NCBI GenBank assembly: GCA_965178125.1
Contig: OZ237750.1
Span: forward strand, 1 to 64,000
Direction of reading: 5' to 3'
DNA length: 64,000 nucleotides
DNA from: Bilabrum cf. latius
Taxonomy: Eukaryota
The translations under genes and the position numbers were made by a program. This document shows, in pieces, positions 5,269 through 64,000 of the stretch. Below the pieces are notes generated by a model. It did not search any database. It saw only the letters and a program-made list of their open reading frames with translations, and was not told where the DNA came from. Every line of letters begins with the position of its first letter. Position 1 is the first letter of the stretch.

Positions 5269-5272
5269 ACCC

Positions 5273-6647: not shown

Positions 6648-6651
6648 ACCC

Positions 6652-8506: not shown

Positions 8507-11500
8507 TCAACTGGCTTGTTCTTCCGGGTGCCATTGTAGCAACTGCGAGCCGCCCACAATCTACTCCGTTCCACCCGTCGCGGAAGAAAGGCTAAGGTAC
8601 CCTTCGCTGACCGCAGTGTCTTTGCACCGTGCCTATCTCTCCGGTCCTGGAAGCACACCAAACCCCGACTAAAAAGCTGCCGAAATCTGCGAAGCAACTA
8701 CCAATTCTCTAGGTAGCTGATGTGTTGCATCTGCCGCGCTCCATGCGAAGCTTGGACTTGAGCCAAAGGGGTGTTCCCGCTGCGACACTTCAATTCTGCC
8801 TTGTGACGACACTACACTGCTCTTTCCAGTGCCACGCGAGGCAACACACACAGCGTGTCTTCCCACGACAGAACTGGCGTCGCCTGTACCACGTCTACCA
8901 TCCTACGTGTGCGTAACATTCCACTGCATTGCATAGCTGATGCCGCAGCTCTGCACCTGGCTTCCCTTCGAACGATCTCCACTAGTTTGTTTGCTAGTTG
9001 CAACAGTCTGCCATTGCACCAGTCGTAAGCCAGCCGCTGTGGCTCCGAACAGAGCAGACTACCACGGCTCGATGCGATTCTGTCGGGAAGGGTTCCCAGT
9101 CGATGACAGACTGGCAGCTGCAGCGCCCTCTTCAACCGCGCTGGCCTTCGCTCGCCGAATGGACTGCAAGCTTCTTGGGGCAACAGATGCATTCTGGTCC
9201 GCCTCAGACTCAGCCGCAAGCCTTTTGAACGATATCGCGGAAAACAAGGAAACAGCTGCAGCTCGCATGGCAGCATGGTGCCACGCAGCAGCATCGGCCA
9301 CCTCGCCAAGCGGTGACGGCGAAGATCGGTTCAGGAGCTCGATCCATTCAGCACCTGGTGGCACCAACACGCCACTGCTGGTAGAGGCTGTAGATTCATC
9401 CATGGGCCGCCAGCCGAGTTCCTCAAGAGACCTTGAGTCCGTGGACACGTAGGCAGACTGCGATACCAAGACGGGTGCGTCTGCATCGTCGCACCCATTG
9501 GCAATAGTCACAGCTGCCCCGGCTCCCAATCCTGACTGATGCCAGCACGTTTGCACAGATGGTTTACAAGTAAGGGGCAAGCATGCGCGCCCGAGTGATC
9601 GTTTTGTTGTGTCACCCTCGGCGCTTGTAGCACCAACACTTAGGATGATAGACACCAGGTGCTGGTCAGGTCGCTGTGGTGTGCCACCCCTCTCCACCAT
9701 TGGATCTGGCAGTAGGCATGCTATCAAGGTGCACTCGTATCCTGCACCAACTTCCAAGGAATCGCAATCTAGCGCGAACGATGTAAGGCTCGGACCCACC
9801 TACCTGGCTTTAGAGCCCTATGCTGCAGCCGGGCATAGGGACAGAATCCATCCGGGCGTTGCAGCAGCTGCCGACACCAACAATTGACTGGCGCTGACTA
9901 AACCTACATTACGCACTACAACACGCAACCCAAAGAATTGACCAGACAAAACCTCGGTCAACCGCGCTGTTCCAGCTCCACCGCTTGCAGCACATAGCTC
10001 CAAGTCCGGCATGGCGTGGCCCGTGGCCTCAACTGACAACTGCGGCCTTGGTGCCTGGACTGCAAAGGCTGCGAGTCGTTCTAATTGCGCTTTGGCGTGA
10101 AGCGCCACGCCAGAAGCTGACGAAATCTGGGCAGATATGCCGGCTATATCAAGGCGCGTGCACTACTGAAGTGGAATGAACGGGACTCGTACAAGCTATT
10201 GGGCTAAGGGAGGTAGCTGCAAGGAGACCGGAGGACACATGACCCCGTTTTGAACCCACTCAAGCGCTGATGCACGATCGATTCCGCTCGATCCGTCCAA
10301 GGGAGCCCTGAGTATGTCCAGAGTTGCATCTGACAGGTCGAAGCCATCGCTGTCAGAGCTATGCAGAACTTGAACATCAGATAATACAATCGGGAAAACG
10401 TATGGGTTCTACACTGTGAGCTCCAGAACAAGCCGGTCACCAGCTGATACACTCTATGTTACGACAGGGAAGCTTAAAAGCAGCGACTGCATCAGGTCCG
10501 AGCTGAACGCATCACAACACATTCCTGGCTGCTACAGCTGGGCTGCCCAATCCTTGAGCTTTCCAACTTGCTTGTCAAAGTCCAGCTTCATGAAACGGGC
10601 ATCCAAAGCTGCAGTCTATTCCAAACGCACGAAGTCTTCCATCCGTAACCGGGCAGTTCTCAGTGAGCCGCTAGAACTGAGCTGACCCATATCGGACATC
10701 TTGGCACCAGTCAAACTCACAGCGGTGTCTCCAAGTTGTGACCGCAGCACGACCATATGGTCCGTGGGCCTGTCTGGACTTGGTGAGCCCTCACCAATGA
10801 TAACTGCCATATTGACTAACGCTTCGCGAATCCTATCGCTTGCCAACTACTAAGGCCCAGAGTGGAGGACATCCAAGTCCTTTGCGAGGATTCCATGGCC
10901 AACTACTGCGACCCTTTCACCAGCAGGAAAAAGCTGATCAATGTCAATTGGAGCTGAGCCACTCGCGGCGCGACCATCAGGCTTGTTCAGGAGGTGTTGG
11001 CAAATTGTGCCATACCACGCCAAAGGCACAGCGCTGCAGCTCGATACCCGCGCCTAGGCATTGGCAACGAGGGGGAAAACTTGCCTCGTGAGATCGACAC
11101 GCACGGCATGATCCACACCAGGCTCTACTGACCCCAGCAGATCTTCGCATGTCAAGCCATTCGGCATCATACATGATCTTGCAAGCTCCCACAATTGATG
11201 CCACAGTTGCTCGCCAACTGGGCCAGGATCTCGGCCGGAGCCCGCGACAACACGCAGAACGGCTGCTGCAAGAATCAGCTGGAAGTCTCGAGACTCACAT
11301 CTTCCGTGCAGCAACTACAAATGCGTGGCAGGGCAGGGGTGAAGAACAGTACATATATCAGCACCAGCTCCATAGCGAGGCAGTATAGACTGGCAGCACC
11401 ATAGAGCTGCGTCTCGCATGCCTACTGCTACAAACAACTTGACAGCGAGTTGCAGGTGGTGTCCACTGCGCGACAGGATTGATGTTGTTGCTGCCTTATT

Positions 11501-13219
11501 ATCTGAGGCGCGGTGAGCAGGAGAAGAATCAATACGAGACGACGCCGACAGAAGCATGTGGGTCTTCTCGTGCAACACTGCCGCAACCGCGCTGTCTACT
11601 GCGTTCCACATGGTCACTCTTCTTATTGATGCGGCCGCTCCAGCCAGCAGTCGTGCCACTCGAGCAAGCACTTCATCACCAGCCCCACTTCTAGCGCACT
11701 CTGCTGCAAGTTCAAGTAGAGCATTTGACCATTTCAACACAATCGTCGCAGCTTGGGCAGATACAAGCAGCGCACCTGCGGAGGCCGCATGGGCATCCAA
11801 GTCATCTGGGCTTTTGGCAGCCGCAGCTGCCGCCGACGATTTTGCGCTTGCTATGACTCCATCGTATAGCTTTGCAGCTGCAGGTCTCATAAGAAGCCCA
11901 GGAGAGAATGGGGGACAGCAAGAGCACGGCAAGTCGATCTGCAACTGGGTTTCACTGCGTCGTCGTGTGAGCGCGAACGACGCGCTTTCTAGCCCCCCGA
12001 TTGATTCTCGCAGCAGCGGTTCCACGACTTCTAGGCACCTTCCACATATTGATAGCAAATCTCCGTCCGAGGCGATGCCGTGGTACACGCTTTCTATTTC
12101 GACTAACACGACTTGCCCAATCGCAGAGGCCGCATGGAGCGGTGAGCCATCAGCTTGAAACTCTTTCGAGACAGATGCAAGCAAAGACCGTCGTTCCTCG
12201 TGCTCTGAAGTAATCTAACACAAATGCGCCAGCCACATCGCCTCCATCTGCCTGGAGTCATGGCTGTACAGAGCTGGCTCCGGTATGATTTCGGCCCCGG
12301 GTTGACCGTTGCTGAGTCCCAGCAGCGAACTGGGAAGACCTACAACTCTGCTTGCACGCTTTGAAGGCGATACAGGCCCACTGCTAGCAGAAAAAAACGA
12401 CTTGAAGGTGTTGCTGAGCCCTTTCCTCTCCTTGTCGACACGCGCGCGAGCCTGCGCCACCCTGGCAATCAGGGCGTCAGCGAACGGCCCCTTCACTATG
12501 CCAGCGGCAGCCGCCCGGAGACCTGCGATGTCGTCAGCATGGAACAGAGATCCCCGTGTAACCATACTGGGGGTAGAGCCTCGATGAAGCATTTGTCGAT
12601 AGTAGCGATTCCCGAACTCGCTGCGTCGGAACGGCTGAGTGGGCTTGCGTGGATCGCCCTCGACGTCAATTAACAGGGGGGCCTGCAAGTGAGGCGTCCA
12701 CGCATCAACCGGGGGCTCTTCGCTTTCACCACGAGCAGTAGCTGCTTCTCCGCCGCGGGCTTCGGATTCATGCCCGTCTCCATCCCTCGCCTTGCCCAAC
12801 TCGACATAGAAACACCGACCAGGCCCGAATGTGTCCCGCACGCCTTTCATGATGCGCTCAGGGTCAATTCGCTCCGAAGAACCACCAGAGCATTGCACAG
12901 CCTCGTGTACCAACAAAAACGCCCACGGAAACCTAGTTGGGGTTGACCCAGACCGAAACTCCGATGGAAGCGAGGCTGCATCGCTCAGGGCAGATAGGGA
13001 CACTGCGGGGTTTGCTGCTCGAGTCGAGACGATCGCAATTCCAAGAATGGGCCATGATTGCACGTTACTTCTCAATCGGCGAAACGCACGATCCAAAGTG
13101 CGTTGGATTGAGGTTGCGTGGGGACTGCTTGCTCCAGCGACACTTGCACCGGGTTCAGCAGCTGTCGTCCTAGCGTGCTGCAAAAGAAATAGCCAAAATT
13201 CCAAGCAGATGCTCTCCAT
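8507..13219 (-). CDS. TRAPPC8: TRAPP III subunit Trs85/TRAPPC8-like, about 1570 aa with TAG=Gln; 5' end uncertain
   Basis: One frame from 13219 to TGA 8507-8509, interrupted only by TAG. Motifs RKGLSNTFKSFF, LYSHDSRQMEAMWLAHLC, SKEFQAD...LHAASA and LELTV(Q)NPYVFPIVLSDV resemble Trs85. An in-frame TAA lies just upstream of 13219, so any extra N-terminus would need upstream exons. Confidence 0.75.
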
Positions 13220-14030
13220 ATTTCCATTGAGTTATTCGCTTTGCATGGAGGTGCGAGCACGTCCTTACCTACAAAACATCATGCGGATGGGGTTGTCCGT
13301 AGTCGTACGCTGGTATCAGCATAGGCGATAGTCTAGGCATCCGAGCTTCGCCCTCTCGAGTCGCAACATTCTTCCGAGTATTAACTTGTTGCATGAACGG
13401 CCTGCACAGAACACTGGTAACGACAAACTGCCAAGTGACGTGCCACATTTGCGTGAGAGAGAAGGAAGTCAGAATGGCTCTGCAACTTACTGAAGTGCCT
13501 CCGCCGCATGAAGACCATACTTGCGAAATAGTTCCTATGCATCATCACTTGCTTGCACTAAGGCACAAAGGGAGTCCATGGTGTACCTTGGTGATACAGA
13601 GTTTACTGGGATCTGTAAATATCAGATTGTTCCAGTATCTTGACGCTACAAACATGCAAGCAAACCGAATAAAGGGGACTCGGCGGTGTAGGCTGAGATT
13701 GGGGGGCCTTTGGCCTGAAAGGGTCGGGGGTCTTGTAGTCCTTGTTTGAGGACTCCTCTGGATTCAGGTGATCACTCGAACTCCTTCGGGGGCAACGGTG
13801 CATCTGGGTGCTTGTGGAATCTTTACCCAACAATGTATTTCTGTATTTCTGTATTTAACCGACACATTCCTGGTATCTGGTCAGCCAAGGAGACGCAGGC
13901 TCATATTGTGTCTGGGAATTCCTTAGCATATATCCATTGGCGACGTACGGCATTTTCGTCCTTAATTCGTACTTATCAAAGACTATTATTGGATTCAGAG
14001 CAACTTGCAGTACTTTTTCCTCGACTAGGT

Positions 14031-17000
14031 ATGCAAGGCGAAGATGGCGCTTCGATGAGCGGTTCGGAAGGCTATCCGCAAACCTTGGCGGAGCAACTGA
14101 GACGGGCAGTCGATGATTCGGTGGGAGTTGCTGCCGTTGGTCGGAGCTCACCGCTGTCACCGCCTCAAGGGGCAACTGCTGGTGAGGCAGCGCTTGCAGA
14201 CCTAATTGAAGAAATGATGGACAAATCACTGGCCTAGGATGCATCACTGGACCGTCTGGCTTCAATTCCACGGGTGTTTCTGTATTACTCGTCGAGATTA
14301 ACGAATGCACACGGGGCTTCTACGCGATTGTCGCTGCAGGGCTGGAAGATGCTTCTGTCAGATTGTGGACATTTGCGATCTTAGTCGGAGCAGCAAGTTG
14401 CAGACATGACACATGTCCGTGCTGTCGCGGCTTAGGCGAGGGAAGGCTTGCACGGAGCTGCAAGTGGACAGTTGGGTCAATCAGGTTTCGTGTTGGCGCT
14501 GGCCATGATCACTGTCAGCCGGTTGCCTCCTGTTCTGCGCAAACAACTAACGAGTGCCGCATCATCGTCTTCAGCATCGAGCGATTCTGGCGGCGGACCT
14601 GCTAGGGGCACACTTCTGGAGGCGGCGGCGAGGCTGAATGCGATGCTTGCAGACGCCAAGGAGCAGCAGGATGCTGTTGATGCCTCTCCTCTCCTGGATC
14701 CAGCTGCAGTCCGCGTGATAGGCGCGCACGAAAAAGACTTAGCCCGTCTGTTCTACCACCGAGCCATTCTCATGGGCTCCATCGGCTTAACCCTTGACGG
14801 GGCTGTGGCAGTGGCGAAGGACTGCGAGCTGTTTCCCCGCCTGTTATCCAAGGAGTCCGTGCAGAGGGAATTTGAAGCAGTGGCTAGCGGCGGCAAGTCC
14901 TTGGGATACTCCGATTTCGTGGAGCTGTTCGGGCGGCTGGCGTTGGTGGCCTATTCTGGTTCTGAATTTGCGGACGCCCTGCCGGACGCAGCCAGCAAAG
15001 TGAACGCGGCCCTCACTGCATTCGAAGGGAGCGAGGCGCTGGACTCGTTCCACAGGGAGGAGCGGGAGAGGGGGGTTGACGTTCTTGCGGCTGTCCGTGC
15101 TGCAGATTCTCGGGCTAGCTCACCGAGTGCCAGGTCTCGCGGCAGTCCTCAGGATGCAGCCGCCCTATCCCTCAGGTCGTCGAGGGCGAGCAGTCCAGGG
15201 GATCGAGCCGGGGATCGCTATTCGGGAGAAGGCCCACCAAGAGCTGGATCAGCAGCGGAATCGAAGCAGAAGCGGAGTCGCCGTGCGGCTCGACGACGCG
15301 CTAGCGTGACCATGCATGCATTGGAGGTGCAGGCTCGTCATGATGCTGCCACTGGCTATGCTGGCGAGTCAGACGGGAATCTACATGTGGACCACGGCCA
15401 CAGCGGTGGTGCAGCCGATTTGAGCTTGTCTGCTGGCATGCTTCCAAAGTCCTAGCCAGGCTCTGAGACGAGCTCGGTGCTATCCCGTGCATCTCGCCCT
15501 GTGTCAGGACCAGGCGATCTGCAGCCTACCGCACCTCAGTACGAGTTTGCCCGTGTCGGAGAGGACAAGCACCGTGCTGGGCAAGCAAGTGATGCGCAAG
15601 ACAGCTCACTGACCTCGAGTACGTCTGCCAGTCCACTCAGAGCCTCGCTGGAGGCAGAACGCATGCAGCTTGCCAGGGATCTCGATGCCAGGGCGAATCC
15701 TCCAGGTCCTGGACCGCAGCTGGAGCAGCCGTTCGACTATCCTCCAAGCAGCCACGAGCATGCCGGTGTTGCTCCGGTGGACCGATCAGTTGGGGCTAGC
15801 GTTGGCATGTTAAAGAGGAGTGGGGTTGCAGAGTCTCTATCTCTCGCAGCGCCAGGGTCATCGGTCTCCGTGGATGGGTCGCAGGCGCGCGGCCCATTAG
15901 GCTCGATGCGCAGCCCGCCCCGGTCTCCGCGCCATTCCAAAGGAGAATCCGGCAGGAGCAGCCGGCCTCAGCACTCAAGCCGCGTCGATGACTAGCTTGT
16001 CGCAGGAGTCACTTAGTAGCTGCAAGCTGTAGCACACAGGGCCCACGATGCCTTCTTCTTCTACTGTCGCATCGATGATCCAGCCAATCGAGGCGAAATG
16101 AGCCCGCGGAACTTTGTGCGGCTGTTGCGCGACGCCGGTTTTTTCGATTCATCCACGGGACTGACTGTGCACGAGGTGCAACTGCAGCTGGTAATTATGG
16201 CACGCAACAGATCACACCATAAGGATGAGCGGGAGTGGGCCCGGGATGACAAGTTGGATGCATCTGATGCAGCCGATACAAGAACAGCGCGATCTAGCCG
16301 CGTGGGAGCCGGGCAGGGCCAGCCCTCCAAGCAATACAGCTCTCGCGGCTCTATTCGGTCCGGAACGGTCGGATCAAGGCGGGGGTCCGTTTCCAGGGCA
16401 TCGTCCGTTGGGAGCGGAAAGCGCGGCCGACGTGGCAGCATTATTGGTGGCGCCGCATCGCAGCTCGCCAGCGAAGCAGTGCTTGACTGCGACGGATTCG
16501 TCGAGGCCGTAGTTCGTTGCTGCGAGCTGCGCCGCTAGCATACAGCGAAGCGAAACAGGCGGCAGCAGGTGTCAAGCAGCTTGTCCCAGCCACAAGCTGC
16601 CTTTGATTTTTCTCGCCAGCTCTTGCTTGAAGACATAGCACCGCTCGGAGAGGTTGCCTCAGGCTATGAGCAGATGCTATAGCGAGTAGAAAGTGCGGCA
16701 GTCGTTCAGAACATGCGTCGAAGCCGGAAGCTGCTTTCCAGGCTTTTTACATATTTTTGCGACGCGCGCAAAGGTGACGACACGAGCCAGGTGCTTCGGC
16801 TGCCTTAGCTGGTGAAGCTGTGCATAGATTGCGAGATATCCCCGCGCCTTATTAGCCGTTCTGAGATCGAAGCAGTGTTCTACCACGTTGCGAGGAGGCA
16901 CGGTACAGACGCAACCACTGGAGGGGGTCCGCTGCGTGGCGTGACCGGAACTTCCGTGGGGGGCTATCGACGCGCCTCGATCACACAAGCAGAGCGGCAA

Positions 17001-19583
17001 CAGGAGACAGGTGAGGAAGGCACTGGAGAGCGAGGCATGGATGCAAGCTATGTCACGTTTCCTGCCTTTGTGGAGTGCCTCGGTGTGTTCGCACTGCAAG
17101 GATTGGCGCAACCTTTCATGCATCGCATGTACCCTAGACCAGAGAACAAGGTGGAGGGGATGATCCTGTGGATTCGAAGCAGCGATGTGCTGCGCAAGAT
17201 CTAGTCCGAAGACCATTAGAGGGGCTACGGCCGAAAGTCAGGGCGAAAACTGTCCAAGCGAGCTGCTGCTGGCGAGATAGTTCCAGCAGACATCGACACT
17301 TACTCGAAATTAGTCGCTCAGATACGACCGGAATTGCGACCAAGTGCGGGTGGATCGAATGGCGGTCGCGTGCGTCGAAGCTCAGTGTTTGCAGGGCTTA
17401 TGGCATCCAAGGAGGAGCAAGGCCTGCTCCTCGAGCGAGCCAAGGACGAGTACGCCGAGCGAGGTGGAATTGGCCTGGATCGGGTAGCCGATGGCTCTGC
17501 AGAGGATATTGGTCATGTCGACTAGTCGACGGCCAGATCTTTCCGGTTTGGTGAGGGACAAAACTCTGTCGATGAGGGGCCGCAAGACGTCCATAGCAAT
17601 GCGATCTCGGGTGTTCCAGATGGCAGAGGCACAACTGGGAGTAGCAGCAGACCGCCACCACCGCCGCCCCCACGTCGGGATGGAGGCGCCGAGCAGCCTG
17701 CCTCTGAAGGATGCAGCGCTGCTGCTACCAGCGAGGATGTCCAGCTGGACCACCAGGCTGCCGCAGCACCGTTGGACCGAGATACTGCCCCAGCTGTTGC
17801 AGTAGCGCTCCGTATTCTTGCTGCAGCGCTTAACGCGTCATCAAACAGCTAGATTGTGGCATCAGATGACAATGAAGTGCGAAATGTGATCCAGCCGGCT
17901 CGCAAAGATATCGAGTCGGCAATTAGAGCGGTGTCTGCGGCGAGCACGGATCCGGATCATGGGCTTCCGCAAGATGTAGCAGAAATTGCAGCTTCAGCCG
18001 CGAGTGCGGTTGCACAGGATAGGGGTGTATCTGGTGGTGCTATCAGTGACCCCTCCAGTCGAGATGGGGAAGGGTCTGTTTCTGCTGAGAAGTTGCTGCG
18101 CATCGCAAAGGCACTCGAGACTGTGGCCTAGGGCCCAACCCCGCACGTATCGCCTAGCCGCAATCACTAGGCGAATCAGGGTGATGATTTAGTAGAGGCG
18201 ATCGGCCAGTTTGAGGAAAGCAAGCGAAGCACTGGATATACTTCGGCACACCGGGGTCTCGCTCCCGCCCCGCAGCACATTAGCGCACGGGCTGTACACC
18301 AGCAAGGCGGGTCTATGTTAGTGTCGCCATCCAGAACTCCAGGCCAGATATCTGGCTTCTAGCGTTCCTATGCGTCTCCATAGAGGCAGCATCCAGGCAA
18401 TCAGGGCAGTTCGCGGTCAGATACCGGTGAGCGAAACATGCAGAGTGGACTGCGTTCAAGCAGATCTAGCAAGAGGGGTCCTTCCATGCAGTCAAAAGGG
18501 TAGGCGTCTGTCCCGGTGGAAGCCCCCAGCGGGCACAATGGATTGCTCGAATGGTTGCAATCCGCCCCGCTGGCTCGTGACGAAGACGAGAAGTCAAGAA
18601 GGCTGCAGCTGATTCGGAGTGTGAGAGAGAATGCCATGCGGGCCTCACAGGAAGTCGCCTTCAAGGAGAACCTTGGGCATACGGGGGCAGCCTGGGCGGG
18701 CGGGCTTCGTCGAGGTTTGCCGACAACCCCATCCAGCCGGCGCAAGCATACCGCAGGGACACCCGCGAGCGCCCACGTGGTTGCTCACCCGTACGAGCCT
18801 GTCGGGAGCCGGAGCCATGTCGTGGGCGCGTCGACTGCAAGCGGCGGGGCCGGAGGAGCCGTACTGGATTTCAGGGGCGTTGTGGAGCATGTGCACAGGG
18901 CGGAGCGAGGCCGCGCCTGGAAACAAACGCAGGACTGGATCCGCACTCAACGCGTGGACTTGTCTGGTGCATCTGGCTTCAGCGGGCGCAGGACCACACC
19001 TCGAGGGCCGCGCCTCGTGACAGACTCTCTGGCCCTCTCCCGGTCCGGCAAGAAAGAGCTGAAGGCGTCCAAGGCTTGGGGGCGCAAGGACGATGACAAC
19101 GGCGATGACGATTGGATTGCAGCGCAGTCCCGCCTCGAGATTGCCAGGGAGGCCGAGCTGGCGGCGTCTAAGCGATCCACTGGGATGACGCCCGTGCCTC
19201 CTCCGCTCTGGGCGTCCGCTCACGGATCTGGCGCGCACGTGCCGCCTGTTCGGCTGGAAGACACTTTGCGATCGTAGACATCGCGCAGCCTCGGGAAGCC
19301 CGCACTGGGAGGCACCACGAGGAGTACCACCAAGCCGAGGTCCTTCGCCCTTCGTGCGCTGGCCCGTGCGAAGGAGCGGGATGGCATCCTTTTCTCGTCC
19401 GTTGCCAGTCAGCAAGAGTAGCATCAGGACGCTCCCACCGCGAGCGGGAGGACTCCGAGCGCTGGCGGCCGTCCTGGTGCTGGTGTGGCCGAGGCTGCTC
19501 AGGGAGAGGTGAAAGTGGGCCTACCGGAGCAGACCCCCGAGGCAGATAATCTAGGCATGTCGTCGGCTTTTGAGTTGGAATAA
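14031..19583 (+). CDS. Large (about 1850 aa) protein with repeated EF-hand/p25-alpha-like modules and low-complexity linkers
   Basis: Track ORFs at 14448, 15477, 16098, 16812, 17334, 17856 and 18516 share one frame joined by TAG only, ending TAA 19581-19583. A recurrent module reads F.YY/F...L.DC.(L/I).P.L.S...F...F.E.L..LAL. Product assignment is weak. Confidence 0.7.
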
Positions 19584-22187: not shown

Positions 22188-23003
22188 TCAAATCTCGTCG
22201 TCCGGGTTTTTGTATGCTACTGCAGCATCCACCTTGTGGACGGTCGTAGTGAATGACCGCAGCATGACTTCGCTTGCTTTCTGTATGTACTTGGGGTCAG
22301 AGTCCTCCCACGTGGTCGGAACGCTTGCATCCTTATCCGTGTAGACAAGCAAGTCGAAGGCGCATGGCTCCTCGAGCATCGGCAAGAAGGTAACACTTGC
22401 GGTGATCTGCCGAATGATGGCCTGAATCTCCTTCTAGATTTCCTTAGGGTCCTTGCCCTTGGAGGACGCCCCCGTGGGACCTTTTGACACAACCGCTGCA
22501 TCAGTCTGCACATTGAATACCCATCGCTCCAATGTCTCCCCGGATTCCACACCAGACACCGCCACCACAAACTTTTGCACTTGCCCGTGCGTGAGCCATG
22601 CTGCAGGAATTGAGTCAGTGAGCGTTCTGCTACCACAGTATGCGGTCATGGTAGTCGTTCTATGCGATCTCATAGCTATTCACGAATGCTTACCGCTAAT
22701 TTGCTTCAGAACCTGGGACAGGTACGCCTTCAACCCGTCGTCTGTGGAGACTTGCATTGGCAAGCCATACTTCATGGCAGTCGAAAACGAGTCCGGCGGG
22801 TATATTCCACGCTAATATAGAATAGAATTTATGGCGAAGCCAAAAAACTCCGTCACGGTTTCAACGCTGCCTTTCAAAGTCACTTCATTGCTTGTTGCTG
22901 TCTCAACAGATGCCTGTGGAGTGGGAGAGGTACGGAGAGCACCAAATCATGGATTCACGACTATCAAAAATAGATAAATTGTTTCAACAGAGAATCTAAC
23001 CAT
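22188..23003 (-). CDS. MAD2: Spindle checkpoint HORMA protein MAD2
   Basis: VTLKGS..VTEFFGFAINSILY(TAG)RGIYP, LERWVFNV, KEI(TAG)KEIQAIIRQITASVTFLP, LRSFTTTVHKVD. Introns 22601-22693 and probably 22914-23000 (ATG-only first exon, inferred). Ends TGA. Confidence 0.95.
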
Positions 23004-23564: not shown

Positions 23565-23615
23565 TTGAAGCCGAGCATTCCCAGGCATGAGACTTTATTG
23601 AACCCATGTAACAAA

Positions 23616-55164: not shown

Positions 55165-55378
55165 AGTTGATTGACCTGCGGTGCTTATGCGGAATTTCCT
55201 ACCATTATACACAAATATGGATGCAATCAAGAAGTTTCGGACTTGTGCAATTGGTAAAGATGAAGACAACATGTGACAACGGCAAAATTCTAGTTTTCAG
55301 TCTCGTATTTGCTGAAGTTGGAATGGATACGCCATGAGCCTTGCGGATTTTGTTCATTAAGAGAAAAGGCTCAGAACC

Positions 55379-58300
55379 ATGAACAAATACGAGCTGTTAG
55401 GTACAGTTGGGGAAGGGTGAGCAACCGCTTTGTCTGTCTACTATCTGCTCGATGCGTGCATTCTTGGCCCTAAGTCCTCTACCTCTGTATCGAAATCGAT
55501 TTTAGTGGATGATATTGCTCGCAGGACCTATGGCGTTGTCGTCAAGGCGCGCGTTCGCAGCTCGCGCCGCCTCGTTGCAGTGAAAGGCTTTCGAGAGAAG
55601 GACACAGTTGCTCATGTCCGCAAGACAGCGCTTCGCGAAGTGCGGCTCCTGAAAAATATTCGCCATGAAAACATTGTGGAGCTCATTGAGGCGGTTCGGC
55701 GAAAGAGCAAGCTCTACCTTGTTTTTGAGTATGTGCAGCGGACTCTGCTCGAGGACCTAGAGAGACGGCCAGACGGCCTCGACACAAAAACAGTGAAGCG
55801 CTACGTATTCCAGCTGCTACGAGCTGTGGCTTACTTGCACCAGGTCAATGTCATGCATCGCGATCTCAAGCCAGAAAACGTGCTCATCTCCCGGCATGGG
55901 GTCCTCAAGCTCTGCGATTTCGGGTTTGCACGGGCGTGCCCGGGGCCCTCCACGGGGGATCAGCCCCAAGCTGCCAATGGACCCGCGTCCAGGCAAGGCC
56001 TGCTGGCGCCTGCTCATGGTGGCAGCGGCTCGGCCGCCGCCGTGCTGACCGACTACGTGTCCACCCGCTGGTACAGGGCCCCCGAGCTGCTGGTGGGGGA
56101 CCCTGCCTACGGGATGCCAGTGGACGTGTGGGCCGCGGGGTGTCTCGCGGCCGAGCTGTGCAACGGGCTAGCACTGTTCCCTGGTAAAGACGACGCGGAT
56201 CAGCTGTCGAGGATATGCGCTTGCCTTGGTCCGCTTCCCGAGAGGCTGGGGCGGCTGCAGCGCGAGTCGCCGCATGTCCGCAGCGCCGTGCTTCCGTCTA
56301 CCGGTGGAGCACCGGGGAGTCAGGGCGGCAGCTAGTCTGTTCCTCAAGAGCTCCACCCGGAGACCCTGGCGGAGAAGCTCCCAGGGCTGGACCCCCAGCT
56401 GCTCGACCTGATCGGGGCCTGCGTGCGGCTGGATCCAGCAGAGCGGGCCACTGCGGGTGAGCTGCTGCAGCACCCGTTCTTCTCTGGTTTCGCCACCCGG
56501 TTCATGCCCAAGCTGAGTGCTGCCATGCGACGGGATGCAGCGCACTACCTGGGCAGGCAGCAGGCCTCGGGTGATGGATCCAGCGGGAAAGGGCAGGACT
56601 AGGGGCATGGGCAGGCGAGTGGCCTGCACGGGGACGGCTCGGGGGATGGGAAGCGCAGTGGCGTGGTCATCGGAGCGACCACCTCGGGCCAGCTGCTGCC
56701 GCGCCCGCACACCCCCCTTGCTGCCTCAGGCAAGGGGTCCACTTCGCAGCCCCTCCCGCACTCGCACACGCTCGTGTCGCCCGAGACCGGCAGGCCAGTC
56801 CCGCTACCAGGGAACAATGGGAGCGTGTGGCCCCCTGCCGGCGAGGGTAGCGACAGCAGCGGTGCATATGGAGGCGCGGCATCGCTGCACCCTTCCGCTC
56901 CTGCCGACGTGCTGCCCGCTCCTGGTGTTTTGATGACCCAGTCCGTCGTGGACGACGAGAGCGGCAGTGCCCCCTGGATGGAGGATTCCCGCTCTGGGAG
57001 GCGCAAGCGGCGGGGCAGCGGCATGCAGCACGGGCTGAGTCGCAGTATGGGCAGGGGGGATCACTTCGATGAGGGCATTGGCCTGCAGCTGCAGCCGGGC
57101 ATCGGGCCGCCAGACCGACCGCCGGGTGCAGTGTCAGAGGTAGACAGCGTGAGGAGCGATTTCAGCCGCATCTCTTACCTGACTGCGGGCACCGCGATGA
57201 CGCAGGGCTCTTTGGACTCTGTGTCCCGGTCCAGTCTGCCCGGGGGGGAGGGACCCGCGGCCAGCCAGCCGCCGCAGCTCGTTGAGCCAGCCGGCTCCGC
57301 GGCCGATTCCGTGGGCCAAGCGGGGTCCCAGCCCAGGGCTGGCGCGTCCACTGATAAGCGGGTCCATGTCGCGAGCAACTCTCGCGGGAAGGGCCGTGCC
57401 CGCACGCTGCAGCAGCAGCAACGGATCTACGGGGGCAGCAGGCAGCACGGCGCTCGTGGGGGCCGCTCCATCTCCATTGGCAGGACCCGGGCCCGTGCGC
57501 GCGGCAGGCACGGTCGCAGGCCAGCCCGGACCCGCAGCCAGAGCCGCGCTGCGGACGGCCACGCGCCGTCTTCTCGCCTGGCCTAGGGGGGGCACCAGCC
57601 GAACTCTAGCAGCCGTGGGGCTGCTCCAGCGAAGCAGGGCGGCGGGATTGCTGGGGCCACTGGCGTCGTGGGTTCCAGTCCAGACAGCAGCCGTGCAGGG
57701 CACACGCGCGGAGTCGAGGCATCCAGGGCTCATAGATCGGAGCGACCCTCCAGGAAGTCTTCGATGGCCGCCTCCCAGGGACGCGGCACCACAGCTGACG
57801 GCAACGAGTCCGAGGACAGCCTGGACCGGGAGGACGGAATGGGCCCGGGGGAGTTCCCCGGTGATGCAGCGGACGACGGGCCGGACCGCTTCGTGCTGGG
57901 GGAGGAGGATCCCAGCGGCGGCACCGGAGCGAGCAGCGGGATCTAGAAGCGGTCGCGCGGGGGCCGCCGGAGCGGCGGCGGAGGGGATGGCGGTGACGAC
58001 GGCCGCCCGTCGTGGCTGGTGGAGGAGCAGGTCGACCGGGGCGCGGACTCCACCACTCGCACGCACGCCAGCGAGAGTTTCACGGATCCAGGCGTCGCGG
58101 ACGAGGACGGTGAAGGTGATCCAGTCGGCAGGGCGGGAGGAGCTCGGGTGGGGCGGGCAGAGTCGGACGAGCTGAGCCACGGGAGGGCACCGGCGGACGG
58201 TCGCTCCGACGGGGATGCCTCCCGCAGTCTGAGAGGCTCTGTACAGGACTAGCGGTCCATCGAGTCACTCGTCACATAGGATCGGCACGTGGCGGTGTCC

Positions 58301-61177
58301 GGATTGCTGGACAGGCAGGGTAGCGGAACCAGTCTGGCGAGCGGTGCGGTAGGTGCTGGTGCTGGCAAGGAGGCGTTCGGGGGAAGGGACGGTGGCGGTG
58401 ACGCTGATGCCGGTGTGGGCGTGCTAGGCAGCACTGGGGGCCTGGATGAGATGCCGTCAATCGTCAGCGTGACATCAGTGCGGACCAGCGACAGCGGCCA
58501 GGGTCCCAACCAGGGGAGGCGCAGCCGCGGCCGCGGGGAGCGCCGCGGGGGCCAGAAGCAAGGGTAGCAGAAGGGACCAGGGCAGAGACACAGGGACCCG
58601 AATGCCGTGCAGGCATCTCCGGGTACGGAGCGGCGCCGGCTGCGCAACGCCGGGAGGGACGGCTTGCCCAGACTGCGGATTGGTGTGGGGCAAAGCACGG
58701 GGGACAGGCCACCTGATGGGAGGAGGTCGGCGGCCTCCCCCTCCCGAGACTCGAGGGACCGCAGCCGCCCAGGAGACGGCGAGGAGTTCCAGCCCCTCCT
58801 TTCGGCCCGCACTGCAGCGTCAGAAGCGGCCCAGCGGTCTGGTTCTCGCGATTTCCGCGACGATCCCAGGGTGCTGCTGCCAGTAGCGGCGGGGTCGAAC
58901 GGCAGACAGGTGCCGCGAAGCAGCCGCGGGAAGGACGTCATCATCCCAGGGGCAGGGAACAACGGGGGTGCCGACGGCGTCTCTGAGGGGCTGGGGCTGG
59001 GGCTCGGGCATAGGGGTAGACCTCCCCGGTCTGTGGCTTTCGTGTCGAGCGTTGACTCGGCCGATAGCGGCACCAGCAGCGGCGGCGCTCCGGGCGGTGC
59101 TGGCGTGAACGCCCCTAGCCATGGCAGGAGGGGTCGCCGCCGCAGCAGGGACAGCGTGGGTGCCGGTGGTTCCCGCCGGGACGTCTCCCCTCTTCGCCGG
59201 CCGGGTGGTGGGGATCCCAGTGACCGAGGCATCGCGGGGGGTCGCCACAGCCGAAACAGGGATTCTGGCTCCGGATCTGTGCACGGAGGACCTTCCGGCT
59301 CCGGATCCGATCCTCTCGCTGACACCGGTCGCACGCACGTCAGCGAGCTGGGGAACACGGCAACCCCCTCTGCGATTGGGGGCGGCGCCGGTGGCGGTGA
59401 GAACGGGCTGTCGGCCTCGCAGAGCCGCAGACAGGCATCGGGCGGGGAGGAGCCCTGGTCTCCCCTCTCTGCTGCGGGGAGCGGGGCGGGGAGCGTGGGT
59501 GCGGTCGGGTCGCCGATGGCGCGGGCTGCGCGTGGCAAGTGGCCCAACGGACCCGATGCTCTGGATCGGCAGCTCATGCAGCACCAGCAGCATCGCGGCG
59601 AAGACCTGCATGGCCAGCACCAGCAGCATCAGAAGCAGTCCTTTCCTGGCTCTGCTGCGGATCGCGAGGGCCTTGCATCGCGGGGCACTATCCTGGAGGT
59701 GGACGTCACCGACGGTGGCATGCGGTACTCGACCCCTGGTGCGGGTGGACAGTCGGGTGGTTCGGAGGCGGGGCGGCATAGGGACCGGCCCCACCGGGGC
59801 TCCTTCGGGATCGCTGCAGTGGGAATGCTGGCGGGCGGGAGCCAGGGGGCCGAGGGTGTCGGGCTGGGGCTGCAGATCCTGCATCAGGGCGGCAAGGGTC
59901 ACGCCCAGCATCACCACCACGGGTCGGTGCACCGGAGGGGCCTATCCGATGGCCTCGCCTTCGCGGGCCTGCACGATGCGATGATGCCCGCAGTTGGGGA
60001 GGAGCAGGAAGAAGACGAGCTTGAGGGCAGCATGTCGGGAAGGGGCTCAAGGGGCCGCAAGCAGAGCAGGGGTGGGGCTGGGGGCAGAGGAGAAGGGAAG
60101 GATGCTACGAGGGGCTACGGTGCAGAGCTTCCCAAATCGCTGACCCACGGGTCGCCTTCGGATGGCCCCAGGCACGGCCGGCGCCAGGGAGGGCAGTCAA
60201 AGCCCCACTGGGATGCCGCCCAGCAGCTGCAGCCACCCCGGGAAAGGGGCTACTCTGTGCCCCAGCAGGGAGAGGTCCTGGGCAGGAGCGCCTTATTGAT
60301 GTCGACAGCCCACTCCACGTCGGCTGCGCAGCTTTAGAGGTAGCACCAGCCAAGTCATGGCCATCACCAGCAGCAACAGCAGCAGCAGCAGCCGCATTCT
60401 ACCTCGAGACACCAGGGCCGGGGCCTGGGACTGCAGCTGCATGGTGAAGGGGCAGGGTCTGGGTCCAACGGTGGATCTCTGTCCAGCAGCCAAGACCTCC
60501 GGTACGGAGGCCCTGTGTCTCGCAGCAGCAACGCCAATGGCACCGCGCACCAGCCGCCGCAGCAGAGCACGAGGCCCATCCCCAAGTCGGCCCACGGTGC
60601 GCCCTCGCAGGGCGGCTACAACGACAGGGTGCTGCGGACCGGTCTGGTTGGTGCCCATGTGCGCGGCATCGACGGGCAGCCGTACCACCAGTACTAGCAG
60701 CAGAGCCACCGCCAGTCGCAGCCTCAGAGGGTGCACACCGGTCACGGTGCCGGCCATTCGCACGCGCCCAGCCCTTATGCTGCCGCATAGACGCTTGGGC
60801 CGAGGAGTCGAGGTGGAAGGGGCGTCCGTGGGGGCCGGCGCATGCCCACCCCACTGGTGGGCGGCACTGCGGGTGCGGGTGCTTCGCACAAGCGACCGGG
60901 TGGGCTCGCCGCGGCGGCGGGTTACTCTTCCGGGGCTCGTCGGTAGGGCTTGCCCCTTGGGGGGTTGGGAGCGGGCGGTGCTGGGGGGCGGCGACTGGGC
61001 GGGGCGCGCCGGCTGCCTTCTGGTGGGGGTGGGCTGGGTGCTGGGGGCATGATGCACCTGGGGCCCAGGTCCATGTCGTCCGTGCAGCAGGCTGGGGAAC
61101 ACGGCGGTAGTGGCGCTAGGGGAGGTGTCATTGGGTTTGGGCGGTTTGGTGCGCGCCAGGAGCTCGTGAGGGGCTGA
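55379..61177 (+). CDS. CDKL-family (CDKL5/LF5-like) Ser/Thr kinase with long disordered tail, about 1896 aa
   Basis: Intron 55417-55524 restores MNKYELLG.VGEGTYG. Motifs HRDLKPEN, LCDFGFAR and TDYVSTRWYRAPELL. Subdomain XI (LDPAERATAGELLQHPFF) lies after TAG 56333. Ends TGA. Confidence 0.92.
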
Positions 61178-61419: not shown

Positions 61420-64000
61420 TTATCTTCCAGTCCCCTCCTCCACCCCATCGAGCTCTGCCAGCACGTGGGCCCGCCCCGAGCTTGATCCACCCCGCGATCG
61501 CATCTCCCCTTTCCTTCGGTCGTGCCACTCCAGCAACCGCTCGTCCTGCTATGACAGCTCTCCAGGTGCTACTGCACCCGCGTGGCTACCACTGACAGTC
61601 ATTGCCACGTGCATGGAAGCGACTGCTCCTAGCCTGTCCCGAAGAGTAACATACGCGGGGCTCTACGGAAGTAGCATCAGGAGACCGTAGAGAGCGCCAA
61701 CCAGCTGCTGGTGGTCCGGCCTCCACGGCTGCAGCAACTGCATGCGGAGAGCAACAAACACTGGTGACTCGATCAGCTGCACTGCCTGATCACAGTGCAT
61801 CAGCGTGCCCACCGTGACCTCTCTCTCGCCCACGCGCTGGATTACGGCCCTAGCAAGCTCGTACCTCCCTGCCAGCAGGCACAGCATGAAAGTCGCCACC
61901 GGGCTTGCGCTCCACGACAAAAACAACTCCTGGAACAGGTCGGTACCGTCTGTGCCACCAGTGGCCGTGCCTGACGATGCTCGTCCGCCACTTTCCCTGT
62001 CATCTCCTGATTCTGCGCCACCCCTGAGCTCATCTCGCAGCCCGACCAGCTCCGGCGCCGTCAGCAGCAGCAGGGAGAGCATGTCCACCATGAGGTTTAC
62101 GAACCTTCGCTCAAACTTCGACGGAGAAGAACTTCGGCGCCCGTCTCTGGTCGTTGCATCGGTAACATCAGTTGACGTAGCCTAGGCGCTGGCTGTGACG
62201 AGCGTTGCACCCGGGCTATCCTCGCTTGCACCCGCGTCGCGACCGTCTGCGCCGCGTAGTAGCCTGGCTAGCGTGACATACGTGGCTCTCGAATCGAGCA
62301 AGTCGCACAGGTGCCTCAAAATCTTGGCTCCTCGCGTCTCTCGCAGCCTTTCCCTGGTCCTTAACTGCTCGAGCACGCTGCGAAGAAGCCTGCCACGGAA
62401 GGCGGCCGGGTCCACCTGGCACATGGCCCCGAGCACTTCGAGGTGCGAGCCCAGCTCCCCCTCAGAAATGCTCTCGTTGGACACATTGGTCAGCAGAGGC
62501 AAAGAAACGGAGTCAACCGCAGACATGACGTGCCCTGGGTACAGCTCCAGCAGCAGCAGCAACCAGGCCAGCGACCACGCCCGGCAAAGCTTGCTGTCCG
62601 AAGACACGTACTTGGTGACCATCTCAACCAGCATGCGGATATCGGTGGACTGAAGACGGCCCCCACCTGAAGGATCCGCGTCTTCGTTCTCGTCGCTATC
62701 CGCTGCTTGGTCTACGTTCCCGGCAGATGCAGCTGCCGTGGCAGCACCTGCGGACGCAGCGGCCGCACCGCTTGCAGCCGCCCCTTTCGCGGTACCTTTG
62801 CCCGAGCTACTCCCGCCTTCTATACCACCCGGCTGACCGGCACTACTCTCGCCCAAGGCACCGCCGGTACTCACCGTCATGCTAGCCCCACTAGCTCCAG
62901 CAGCAACCCCGCCGGTGGGCCGGCCGTCGCCTTCAGACATGAGTCGTGCGAGCCCCATGAGCACCCTGTTCACCCCCTGGGCCTCCTCCTGCACAGCTGC
63001 GTCCTCATCCGAGGCAGCCAGCAGCACGGCCTTCACAGTGGAGGGAAGCATGCGAGCCGCGCCCCTGCCGCACCTCTCTGTCACCAGCCTGGTCCACCGC
63101 AGTGCAACCCTCCGCGGATATGTCGGTCCGGACTCTACCTGCTGCACCAGCTTGGCCACCACTGCAGGGGCGTTGATGCCTCGGAGCAGCTCGTCGGGTG
63201 CGAGTGTCTCCACGATCGCGTAGAACCGCTCAAGCGCCTGCGCAGCAGCATCGCTGACCTCTGGCGCGCGGGTGCTTGTTGCGAGCAGTTCCAGGAGCCG
63301 ATCCACAAATTCAGATAAGAAAACCACCATGTCGATCCCGGGCACGTTATCCAGTGCCTGCAGCCACCACACCATGAGCAGGGACAGGTCCTTGGACGTG
63401 CTCTGGCACACCTACAGCAGCACGGGGAGAAACCCAGCCACGTCGAAATCCTCCCCGGCCTGGTACACCACCTCCCGCAGCAGCTCGTTCAGTCGCTGGG
63501 CCGCCCCCACGACGCGCAAGTCATCGTCCTGGTGCAATCTAGCCACCGCTACGAAGAGGATCCGTACGAGGACTGGGTCCGTGGCCATGGCGCTCCTCGA
63601 GGTCTTGCACAGCTCGAATAGAGCCTCCACCCCCTACAGCCTGAGCTCGGGCTCCCGCGCGCCTACCACCTCCATGGTCGCCCGGAGCATCTCTGCCACA
63701 TGCGGCTCCAGCTATGCCTGGGTGAGGACCCTGGCGAGCTCCTTGATGACTGCCATGGCTCCCTGCAATGAGGTGAGCAGCACGGGATAGACTCACGCTT
63801 TGTGGACCAGCAGATAGTGCAGTTAATACGATTTTGACGCAGTACAAGCTCACCATTATTGCTAGTAGGTCCTATTGTCCCATCTATAGATCCGTAAATA
63901 CTCGAATGACATCTGCAGCGCCTTGCTTGTTCTCGATAAGCAAGCCTCTAACGATGTGTCCGATTGCCGTTGCGCCTCTTGATCGCTCCGTGGCATCTCT
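61420..64000 (-). CDS. VAC14: VAC14 (PIKfyve/Fab1 complex scaffold), 5'-partial
   Basis: SWSASPVATFMLCLLAGRYELA, DQAVQLIESPVFVALRMQLLQP, LYGLLMLLP(TAG)SPAY.TL..RL. Intron 63763-63853; ends TAA 61420-61422. Confidence 0.92.

What the first reader, a model, noticed from the sequence alone, without database searches (positions are those of the whole stretch)
8507..64000. Non-standard nuclear genetic code: UAG = Gln while UAA and UGA remain stops
Seen: nearly every gene is one long frame broken only by TAG, never by TAA or TGA, and predicted genes end in TGA (most) or TAA (four). TAG sits at family-conserved Gln positions: MAD2 ILY*RG (22812) and EI*KEI (22434); RRS1 LVS*LF (24468); P4-ATPase LWE*FRR (30619); TOM1-like V*LGRF*R (55090, 55075); VAC14 LMLLP*S (61663). 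It also mixes into a polyQ run, CAG CAG TAG TAG CAG CAG (46703-46720). Established: nuclear UAA and UAG are usually reassigned together. UAG-only Gln (NCBI table 15) is rare and reported in Iotanema spirale and a few ciliates. Inference: TTAGGG telomeres, high GC and ~90-nt introns do not look like a ciliate, so this may be an independent, possibly undescribed reassignment needing a tRNA-Gln(CUA) and an eRF1 that ignores UAG but not UAA.
Basis: partly seen in the sequence, partly recalled or inferred. Interest (0 to 1): 0.96.

Follow-up and report, generated by a model that had tools for sequence, protein, structure and literature searches.

The report
UAG codes glutamine in a protist
This chromosome end comes from a GC-rich microbial eukaryote, probably a heterotrophic stramenopile, that reads the stop codon UAG as glutamine while keeping UAA and UGA as stops, a rare genetic-code change that I could not find reported for this group.

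Summary
From 8.5 kb onward the window holds 17 genes. They are open only if TAG is read as a sense codon. Sixteen stop-to-stop frames hold 135 in-frame TAG and no in-frame TAA or TGA, although TAA and TGA are common in the other two frames.

The TAGs are present in the mRNA. Spliced contigs from three RNA-type runs of two studies match the DNA with no differences, and they cover 48 of 52 in-frame TAGs.

TAG means glutamine:
- 87 of 101 P4-ATPase homologues have Q at 30619.
- MAD2 (two sites) and RRS1 align to Q.
- Standard-code ORFs of a close relative (86-94% identity) have Q at 4 of 4 bridged TAG sites.
- A Codetta-like score ranks Q first.

TAA is not a sense codon. The one apparent in-frame TAA lies inside a 90-nt intron.

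The nearest named homologues are stramenopiles, so this is not a ciliate. Ten literature searches found no nuclear code change reported for stramenopiles.

The tRNA-Gln(CUA) and the eRF1 changes are inferred. No genome was available to test them.

The parts
369..8125 (.). Chromosome-end context: six CCCTAA (TTAGGG) arrays of about 116-145 units, alternating with blocks of four 155-bp units
8507..13231 (-). Orphan ORF of 1574 aa with 18 in-frame TAG; ends in TGA. A relative's standard-code ORF (P0226, 86% identity) has Q at the TAGs at 9818-9820 and 9800-9802
13719..19583 (+). ORF of 1954 aa, low complexity, no Pfam family, 21 in-frame TAG; ends in TAA, and the next in-frame stop follows after 1 codon
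19782..21998 (+). MBOAT acyltransferase gene with intron 20008-20090 and 4 in-frame TAG; ends in TGA, and an RNA contig ends in poly(A) at 22055
22188..22914 (-). MAD2 gene, two exons with intron 22601-22693. The TAGs at 22812-22814 and 22434-22436 align to Q of human MAD2. The TGA stop at 22188-22190 sits at the homologous C-terminus
23166..23564 (+). Dynein light chain-like gene with intron 23298-23402. The TAG at 23274-23276 aligns to Tyr of LC8 chains (weak match); ends in TGA
23616..24725 (-). RRS1 gene. The TAG at 24468-24470 aligns to Q of human and yeast RRS1; ends in TGA
24819..26030 (+). ORF of 403 aa, no Pfam family, 4 in-frame TAG; covered by RNA contigs; ends in TGA
26922..28706 (-). 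Two-exon gene (spliced CDS 564 aa, 9 TAG, weak Dpy-30 motif). Intron 27576-27665 holds the only apparent in-frame TAA (27639-27641); the gene ends in TAA at 26922-26924
29003..29920 (+). ORF of 305 aa, no Pfam family, 3 in-frame TAG; ends in TGA
30344..39279 (+). P4-ATPase fused to two guanylate cyclase domains (P4GC) with intron 30412-30500 and 28 in-frame TAG. 87 of 101 homologues have Q at 30619-30621; ends in TGA. The start near 30344 is inferred
39432..41075 (+). KTI12/PSTK-like kinase ORF with a long Gly-Ala repeat and 5 in-frame TAG; ends in TGA
41272..43629 (-). Glycyl-tRNA synthetase, 785 codons with no TAG; ends in TGA. Used for placing the organism
44147..52684 (+). Ion channel with a cyclic-nucleotide-binding domain, 19 in-frame TAG, including TAG TAG at 46709-46714 inside a CAG run; ends in TAA
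52911..53996 (+). Ubiquitin-conjugating enzyme-like ORF with 1 TAG; ends in TGA
54145..55296 (-). THH1/TOM1-like membrane protein with TAGs at 55090-55092 and 55075-55077; ends in TAA. Residue-level conservation was not tested
55421..61177 (+). CDKL-like protein kinase with a long low-complexity tail and 12 in-frame TAG; ends in TGA
61420..63792 (-). VAC14 gene. A relative's ORF (P0225, 94% identity) has Q at the TAGs at 63634-63636 and 63412-63414, and it ends just before the TAG at 62182-62184. Another TAG lies at 61663-61665; the gene ends in TAA

Best explanation
The window is a nuclear chromosome end of a GC-rich, intron-poor microbial eukaryote, most likely a non-photosynthetic stramenopile. 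Its nuclear genes use a code in which UAG is a sense codon for glutamine, making up about 17% of Gln codons here. UAA and UGA still terminate translation. This is the pattern of NCBI table 15.

Shown here: UAG lies in frame in nearly every gene, it is present in the spliced mRNA, and it corresponds to Gln. UAA and UGA never occur in frame and close all 17 genes.

Inferred, not shown: UAG is read by a tRNA-Gln with anticodon CUA, derived from tRNA-Gln(CUG). That tRNA cannot pair with UAA, which is why UAA could stay a stop. The release factor eRF1 has lost affinity for UAG, and the glutaminyl-tRNA synthetase accepts the CUA anticodon. TAG codons would then arise freely from CAG by C-to-T transitions.
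For: 1. Frames. With TAG read as sense, frames of 1574-2963 aa appear; the standard-code maximum is 809 aa. Reading TAA as sense adds nothing. Ten of these frames carry Pfam families over their length.

2. Frame statistics. Counts by frame are TAG 135/157/128, TGA 0/254/313 and TAA 0/60/68. CAA:CAG is 170:510, so about 45 in-frame TAA would be expected if TAA were also Gln; none is seen.

3. RNA. Contigs of runs X5, X6 and X7 (two studies) skip six GT..AG introns, one ends in poly(A), and none differs from the window over 19700-39600. 48 of 52 in-frame TAGs lie on the listed pieces. 34 of them lie on X5 contigs that are themselves spliced.

4. Gln identity.
- 87 of 101 homologues have Q at 30619.
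- Log-odds over 5 well-aligned P4-ATPase columns give Q +2.33 and the next residue, D, -4.63. As a control, the method recovers the true residue in 85% of 5-column subsets over 57 codons.
- Mean Q frequency is 0.20 at TAG columns, 0.26 at CAA/CAG columns and 0.028 elsewhere.
- Both MAD2 TAGs align to Q of human MAD2.
- The RRS1 TAG aligns to Q in human and yeast.
- Standard-code ORFs of a close relative have Q at 4 of 4 bridged TAG sites (P0225, 94% identity; P0226, 86% identity).
- All 5 high-identity (81-94%) fragments end exactly one codon before a window TAG.
- TAG TAG sits inside a CAG run.

5. Stops. 12 genes end in TGA and 5 in TAA. The MAD2 TGA lies at the homologous C-terminus. After the TAA ends, the next in-frame stop follows within 1-48 codons. 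The one apparent in-frame TAA lies in intron 27576-27665, and the spliced CDS is open.

6. Mechanistic precedent. tRNA-Gln(CUA) reads UAG but not UAA in Tetrahymena, and eRF1 is altered in Iotanema (passages of PMC5304391).
Against: 1. Four of the five well-aligned P4-ATPase TAG columns have another majority residue: E 66/98, T 56/100, H 59/85 and one mixed column.
2. The dynein light chain TAG aligns to Tyr in 5 of 5 LC8 chains, though these are weak matches with E-values of 0.17-0.3.
3. In Aspergillus RRS1 the aligned residue is L.
4. Distant homologues of the orphan ORF show E, D, D, E, Q and S at TAG sites.
5. TAG codons are slightly more frequent in the last 60 codons of the frames: about 12 by my hand count, against about 8 expected. 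I cannot exclude that UAG still terminates some genes.
6. No tRNA gene is in the window, and neither eRF1 nor GlnRS could be examined. The mechanism is therefore inference.
7. The evidence comes from 55 kb and 17 genes, not a genome.
Confidence: 0.88

Rival explanations
1. UAG is ambiguous. It is read as Gln inside genes but still ends translation in some genes or contexts, as in the context-dependent codes of Condylostoma or karyorelict ciliates.
For: TAG codons cluster mildly near frame ends. For example, three lie in the last 30 codons of the P4GC frame, one of them a single codon before the TGA. By construction no frame here could show a TAG terminator. Only MAD2 has a stop whose position was checked by alignment to a homologue's C-terminus, and it is TGA; the dynein light chain also ends in TGA.
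Against: The TAG at 39187 lies inside the second cyclase domain, which continues beyond it. The excess near frame ends is small, about 12 against about 8 expected. In the known UAG-only cases no dual use was found (passages of PMC11687900). TAA and TGA are plainly dedicated stops here.
Confidence: 0.08
2. Both UAA and UAG code for Gln (the common table 6 type). TAA is simply rare in this GC-rich window.
For: UAA and UAG are usually reassigned together (abstract of PMC5304391). GC3 is 64%.
Against: There is no in-frame TAA in 16.8 thousand codons, against 60 and 68 in the other two frames. About 45 would be expected from the CAA:CAG ratio of 170:510. Five genes end in TAA with another stop soon after. 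The only apparent in-frame TAA is intronic. Reading TAA as sense lengthens no long frame.
Confidence: 0.02
3. UAG is a sense codon for another residue, such as Tyr, Glu or Leu.
For: The dynein light chain TAG aligns to Tyr. One P4-ATPase TAG column is mostly E. UAG = Leu and UAG = Glu codes exist (passages of PMC11687900).
Against: Q ranks first by about 7 log units. 4 of 4 sites bridged by close relatives are Q. MAD2 and RRS1 align to Q. At 30619, 87 of 101 homologues have Q.
Confidence: 0.015
4. This is an artefact or decay: systematic C-to-T sequencing error, RNA editing of UAG back to CAG, or pseudogenes.
For: None was found.
Against: A DNA-type run and three RNA-type runs from three studies agree with the window with no differences, and the transcripts are spliced. 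A relative's ORFs stop at the same sites. TAA and TGA are excluded from the frames, which decaying genes would not show.
Confidence: 0.005

Closest known systems
Iotanema spirale (Fornicata, Metamonada): UAG = Gln, UAA a stop (PMC5304391; abstract and passages seen)
   Same: The same codon table applies: UAG alone is reassigned to Gln, with UAA and UGA as stops. It is also a non-ciliate flagellate.
   Different: It belongs to an unrelated supergroup and was known from a transcriptome only. The eRF1 change reported there (T32G in the GTS motif) could not be looked for here. The present organism is GC-rich, prefers TGA as its stop, and has chromosome-scale DNA.
Ciliates with UAG = Gln only: Hartmannula sinica, Trochilia petrani, Protocruzia tuzeti (PMC11687900; passages seen)
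   Same: The same table 15 pattern applies. In-frame UAG is widespread across genes, and no dual meaning was detected.
   Different: Ciliates use UAA for 78-86% or more of their stops and have their own telomeres and genome architecture. Here TGA closes 12 of 17 genes, telomeres are TTAGGG, and the nearest homologues are stramenopiles.
UAR = Gln codes (NCBI table 6: many ciliates, Hexamita, Streblomastix, ulvophyte algae, Amoeboaphelidium; listed in PMC11687900)
   Same: A stop codon is reassigned to Gln, presumably through suppressor tRNA-Gln genes derived from normal tRNA-Gln.
   Different: UAA is also a sense codon in those codes. Here it is not.
Rhizarian exLh and TARA phyllopharyngean MAGs: UAG = Leu; Scotinosphaera: UAG = Ser (PMC5304391 and PMC11687900 passages)
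   Same: UAG is uncoupled from UAA.
   Different: The amino acid differs. Here it is Gln.
Context-dependent stop/sense codes (Condylostoma, Parduczia, karyorelicts; abstracts)
   Same: Standard stop codons appear in frame.
   Different: In those codes every stop codon doubles as a sense codon. Here TAA and TGA never occur in frame. Whether UAG keeps any stop function is open.

Membership tests
NCBI table 15-type nuclear code (UAG = Gln; UAA and UGA stops) | UAG occurs in frame in genuine, expressed protein-coding genes | tested here: met
   135 in-frame TAG in 16 frames, 10 of which carry Pfam families. Spliced RNA contigs carry the TAGs unchanged.
NCBI table 15-type nuclear code (UAG = Gln; UAA and UGA stops) | UAG corresponds to glutamine | tested here: met
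   87 of 101 homologues have Q at 30619. Log-odds give Q +2.33 against D -4.63. MAD2 (two sites) and RRS1 align to Q. 4 of 4 sites bridged in close relatives are Q. One contrary site aligns to Tyr in weak LC8 matches.
NCBI table 15-type nuclear code (UAG = Gln; UAA and UGA stops) | UAA is not a sense codon and terminates genes | tested here: met
   No in-frame TAA, against 60 and 68 off frame and about 45 expected. 5 of 17 genes end in TAA. The apparent in-frame TAA is intronic. This covers the window only.
NCBI table 15-type nuclear code (UAG = Gln; UAA and UGA stops) | UGA terminates genes | tested here: met
   No in-frame TGA, against 254 and 313 off frame. 12 of 17 genes end in TGA. The MAD2 TGA lies at the homologous C-terminus.
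NCBI table 15-type nuclear code (UAG = Gln; UAA and UGA stops) | UAG no longer serves as a terminator | tested here: inconclusive
   Only MAD2 has a stop checked against a homologue's C-terminus, and it is TGA. There is a mild excess of TAG near frame ends.
NCBI table 15-type nuclear code (UAG = Gln; UAA and UGA stops) | A tRNA-Gln with anticodon CUA is encoded | not testable with these tools
   ARAGORN finds no tRNA in the window, and no genome is held.
NCBI table 15-type nuclear code (UAG = Gln; UAA and UGA stops) | The eRF1 N-domain is altered so that UAG is not recognised | not testable with these tools
   eRF1 is not in the window. No query sequence or genome was available.
UAR = Gln code (NCBI table 6) | UAA is used in frame as Gln | tested here: not met
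RNA editing of stop codons | The mRNA differs from the DNA at the TAG sites | tested here: not met
   No differing letters in spliced contigs of three runs.
Stramenopiles (non-ochrophyte, near bicosoecids or pseudofungi) | Conserved proteins group with stramenopile homologues | tested here: inconclusive
   The best normal-length named GlyRS hits are stramenopiles at 46-52% identity. A quick ML tree of 46 rows puts the window in a clade of 9 (SH-aLRT 99) with Cafeteria roenbergensis. The nearest named P4GC hits are oomycetes. P4GC is reported only from alveolates, oomycetes and bicosoecids (PMC13466520). This rests on single genes. There is no rRNA and no phylogenomics.

The most novel reading that the evidence does not exclude
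This is the first nuclear genetic-code change in stramenopiles. It would be an independent origin of the UAG-only-to-Gln code in a GC-rich genome whose preferred stop is UGA, not UAA. In such a genome UAG should have been a common stop before the change, so the reassignment cannot be explained by AT-driven disappearance of UAG. It would favour a route driven by a suppressor tRNA through an ambiguous intermediate. A sister genotype at 86-94% protein identity shares the code. DNA and RNA data already exist, which would make the lineage a tractable model for how eRF1 can drop UAG while keeping UAA.
Probability: 0.5. Interest if true: 0.88.

Novelty: new member of a known kind. Interest (0 to 1): 0.8.

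Why it matters
Nuclear codes in which UAG and UAA have different meanings are very rare. Passages of PMC11687900 list only Iotanema, three ciliate lineages, one rhizarian, Scotinosphaera and one further ciliate.

Each independent origin tests how a single release factor can be retuned to ignore one of two near-identical stop codons. It also tests whether reassignment needs the codon to become rare first. A GC-rich, UGA-preferring, non-ciliate lineage is a new and contrasting data point.

There is a practical consequence too. Standard-code gene callers shatter this organism's genes. The public protein collections hold only fragments that end at TAG. Its proteome is therefore mis-annotated wherever table 1 was used.

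Tried and rejected
- No whole genome is held for the window.
- ARAGORN found no tRNA in the window.
- The run index listed no RNA holder. The laid contigs of X5-X7 nevertheless proved to be spliced.
- The Atlas search with GlyRS gave only generic GlyRS clusters and no useful taxonomy.
- The word-indexed search with VAC14 returned a single protein, probably because low-complexity words filled the candidate list. No deep VAC14 alignment was obtained.
- The VAC14 C-terminal part has no PDB relative at E <= 0.01. The claim that LMLLPqS is a family-conserved Q was therefore not tested. That human VAC14 has Q there is my recollection only.
- The two THH1/TOM1 TAGs were not tested at residue level.
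- TAGs in the cyclase half of P4GC, in the KTI12/PSTK-like protein and in the kinase (in an insertion) fall in unaligned or variable positions and say nothing.
- The enrichment of TAG next to CAA/CAG codons is weak: 17 of 270 neighbours (6.3%), against 3.9% for other codons and 7.5% for CAA/CAG.
- Two PDB calls failed on a frame slip. They were repeated with corrected coordinates.
- A metagenome scan for further contigs of the organism was not run. The 99%-identical GlyRS (P0105) and the other high-identity (81-94%) fragments come from Logan assemblies only.
- Ten literature searches and term look-ups in five stramenopile papers found no report of a nuclear code change in stramenopiles.
Supplementary tables of PMC11687900 and PMC5304391 might list further taxa.

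Full report
**What is in the window.**
Bases 1-8125 are a chromosome end. Six CCCTAA arrays alternate with blocks of a 155-bp unit. From about 8.5 kb the sequence is GC-rich, 49-70% in 4-kb bins, and densely genic.

Under the standard code the longest frame beyond 8.4 kb is 809 aa. With TAG read as sense, frames of 2963, 2845, 1954, 1918 and 1574 aa appear. Reading TAA as sense changes nothing.

Pfam identifies these genes:
- an MBOAT acyltransferase
- RRS1
- a P4-ATPase fused to two guanylate cyclase domains (P4GC)
- a KTI12/PSTK-like kinase
- glycyl-tRNA synthetase
- a cyclic-nucleotide-gated-type channel
- a UBC-like protein
- a THH1/TOM1-like protein
- a CDKL-like kinase
- VAC14

MAD2 and a dynein light chain-like gene emerge once their introns are removed. 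That makes 17 genes in all.

All seven cited TAG codons and the CAG CAG TAG TAG CAG CAG run are at the stated coordinates.

In 16 stop-to-stop frames (16.8 thousand codons) the counts by frame are as follows.

| Triplet | In frame | Frame +1 | Frame +2 |
|---|---|---|---|
| TAG | 135 | 157 | 128 |
| TGA | 0 | 254 | 313 |
| TAA | 0 | 60 | 68 |

TAG is as common in frame as out of frame. TGA and TAA are absent in frame. A few of the 135 TAGs lie upstream of the likely start codon; the single TAG in the GlyRS frame is one such case.

The CAA:CAG ratio is 170:510. If TAA also meant Gln, about 45 in-frame TAA would be expected.

Gene ends are TGA in 12 of 17 genes and TAA in 5. After the five TAA ends, the next in-frame TAA or TGA comes after 1, 38, 4, 10 and 48 codons.

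The only place where a frame seemed to continue through a TAA is 27639-27641 on the minus strand. It lies inside a 90-nt intron (27576-27665) that contigs of all three RNA-type runs skip. The spliced CDS of 564 codons is open, with nine TAG.

**The TAGs are in the mRNA.**
Fourteen listed runs from nine studies hold the stretch or part of it. I laid four of them on 19700-39600.

Contigs of X5, X6 and X7 (studies P2 and P3) skip six introns of 83-118 nt. All six begin with GT and end with GCAG. One contig ends in poly(A) at 22055, 57 nt after the MBOAT TGA. So these contigs derive from RNA, although the index only guessed so. No run showed any differing letter.

48 of the 52 in-frame TAGs in that stretch lie on the listed contig pieces. 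26 lie on pieces of two or more runs. 34 lie on X5 contigs that are themselves spliced. Editing, base-calling error and pseudogenes are therefore excluded.

**TAG means glutamine.**
1. I aligned the P4-ATPase half, with X at each TAG, to all 103 homologues. At 30619, 87 of 101 aligned residues are Q.
2. A Codetta-like log-odds score over the five TAG columns with at least 50 aligned homologues ranks Q first at +2.33; the next residue, D, scores -4.63. As a control, the same procedure recovers the true residue in 85% of 5-column subsets across 57 sense codons. Mean Q frequency is 0.20 at TAG columns, 0.26 at CAA/CAG columns and 0.028 elsewhere.
3. Both MAD2 TAGs align to Q of human MAD2. The RRS1 TAG aligns to Q in human and yeast RRS1.
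4. The strongest evidence comes from a close relative. Public collections hold standard-code ORF fragments at 81-94% identity to window proteins.
   - P0225 (VAC14, 94% identity) has Q at window TAGs 63634-63636 and 63412-63414.
   - P0226 (orphan ORF, 86% identity) has Q at 9818-9820 and 9800-9802.
   - That is 4 of 4 bridged sites.
   - All five fragments (P0225, P0226, P0227, P0229, P0230) end exactly one codon before a window TAG. The relative therefore carries in-frame stops at the same places and shares the code.

**Evidence against Gln.**
- Four of the five well-aligned P4-ATPase TAG columns have another majority residue (E, T, H and one mixed column). Only 11 of 34 ordinary CAA/CAG columns have Q as the plurality residue, so this is expected at 30-40% identity.
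- The dynein light chain TAG aligns to Tyr in 5 of 5 LC8 chains, in weak matches with E-values of 0.17-0.3.
- Aspergillus RRS1 shows L at the aligned position.
- Distant homologues of the orphan ORF show E, D, D, E, Q and S at TAG sites.
- The TAGs in the kinase, the KTI12/PSTK-like protein and the cyclase half of P4GC are uninformative.

**What kind of organism.**
It is not a ciliate. The window is a 64-kb multi-gene chromosome end with TTAGGG repeats, spliceosomal introns and GC3 of 64%.

GlyRS has no TAG in its 785 codons. It has a 99% identical entry from a Logan assembly. Otherwise its best normal-length named hits are stramenopiles at 46-52% identity: Cafeteria, Tribonema, diatoms, Ectocarpus and Hondaea.

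I built a quick maximum-likelihood tree from the window plus 45 of the 120 listed hits. I chose the named hits and the best-scoring unnamed ones and left out 75. It places the window in a clade of 9 rows (SH-aLRT 99) with Cafeteria roenbergensis and unnamed sequences, outside the ochrophyte clade.

The nearest named P4GC relatives are oomycetes. A 2026 survey reports this fusion only from alveolates, oomycetes and bicosoecids (PMC13466520, abstract and passages).

I conclude that it is probably a heterotrophic stramenopile. This rests on single genes and is not settled.

**How it most likely works.**
Shown: UAG is decoded as Gln, and UAA and UGA terminate.

Inferred from established knowledge (passages of PMC5304391): a tRNA-Gln with anticodon CUA, one mutation away from tRNA-Gln(CUG), reads UAG but cannot pair with UAA. 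eRF1 has lost recognition of UAG; in Iotanema a T32G change in the GTS motif was proposed. GlnRS must accept the CUA anticodon.

None of this could be tested here. There is no tRNA in the window and no genome.

TAG makes up about 17% of Gln codons here, lies mostly in poorly conserved regions and is absent from GlyRS. That fits codons arising from CAG by transition and possibly being avoided in highly expressed genes.

Whether UAG keeps any terminator function is open.

**Comparison and novelty.**
The codon table is that of NCBI table 15. It is known from Iotanema spirale and from the ciliates Protocruzia tuzeti, Hartmannula sinica and Trochilia petrani (passages of PMC11687900).

This case differs in lineage, in GC content and in stop usage. 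TGA is preferred here, whereas those ciliates prefer UAA.

Ten full-text searches found no nuclear code change reported for any stramenopile. Term look-ups in a 2024 stramenopile review, two bigyromonad papers, the Incisomonas genome paper and the 2026 P4GC survey found none either. Supplements were closed and subscription journals are not held, so an existing report cannot be excluded.

I rate it a new member of a known kind. Interest is high for genetic-code evolution, and there is an immediate consequence for annotation.

Noticed in passing
window 1-8280: The chromosome end is not a plain telomere. Six CCCTAA arrays of about 700-870 bp alternate with blocks of four copies of a 155-bp unit plus about 60 bp, with a period of about 1.42 kb. 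A 55-bp repeat (2.8 copies) follows at 8125-8280. This could be a real higher-order subtelomeric structure or a long-read assembly effect.
   Followed up: partly
window 39432-41075 (+): The KTI12-family ORF carries a very long in-frame Gly-Ala dipeptide repeat. Its best solved relatives are archaeal L-seryl-tRNA(Sec) kinases (E 2e-8), which hints at a PSTK and thus selenocysteine machinery that would also use UGA.
   Followed up: partly
window 27138-27167: In all four laid runs, DNA and RNA alike, a contig leaves the window sequence at 27167 and continues with the same unrelated letters. This suggests a second expressed copy or haplotype sharing about 30 bases here.
   Followed up: no
window 41272-43629 (-): Glycyl-tRNA synthetase has no TAG in 785 codons, where about 6 would be expected at the window's average rate. 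TAG may be avoided in highly expressed genes.
   Followed up: partly
window 30344-39279 (+): This is a full-length P4-ATPase/guanylate cyclase fusion (P4GC) with intact DKTGTLT and LDGE motifs. Its closest named relatives are oomycete fusions. It adds a deep stramenopile-like lineage to the known range of this fusion.
   Followed up: partly
proteins P0225-P0230 (relatives of window 8630-12229 and 61423-63792): Public assemblies hold a second genotype at 81-94% protein identity (99% for GlyRS, P0105) with stops at the same TAG positions. It could be a sister species, a strain or a divergent haplotype.
   Followed up: partly
window 20008-30500: All six RNA-supported introns are 83-118 nt, start with GT and end with GCAG. 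Genes have none or one intron, near the 5' end.
   Followed up: yes
window 41066-42463 (+) and many other antisense frames: Long open frames run on the strand opposite real genes, for example 465 aa opposite GlyRS. They have no Pfam match. This is the usual by-product of high GC content, not extra genes.
   Followed up: partly
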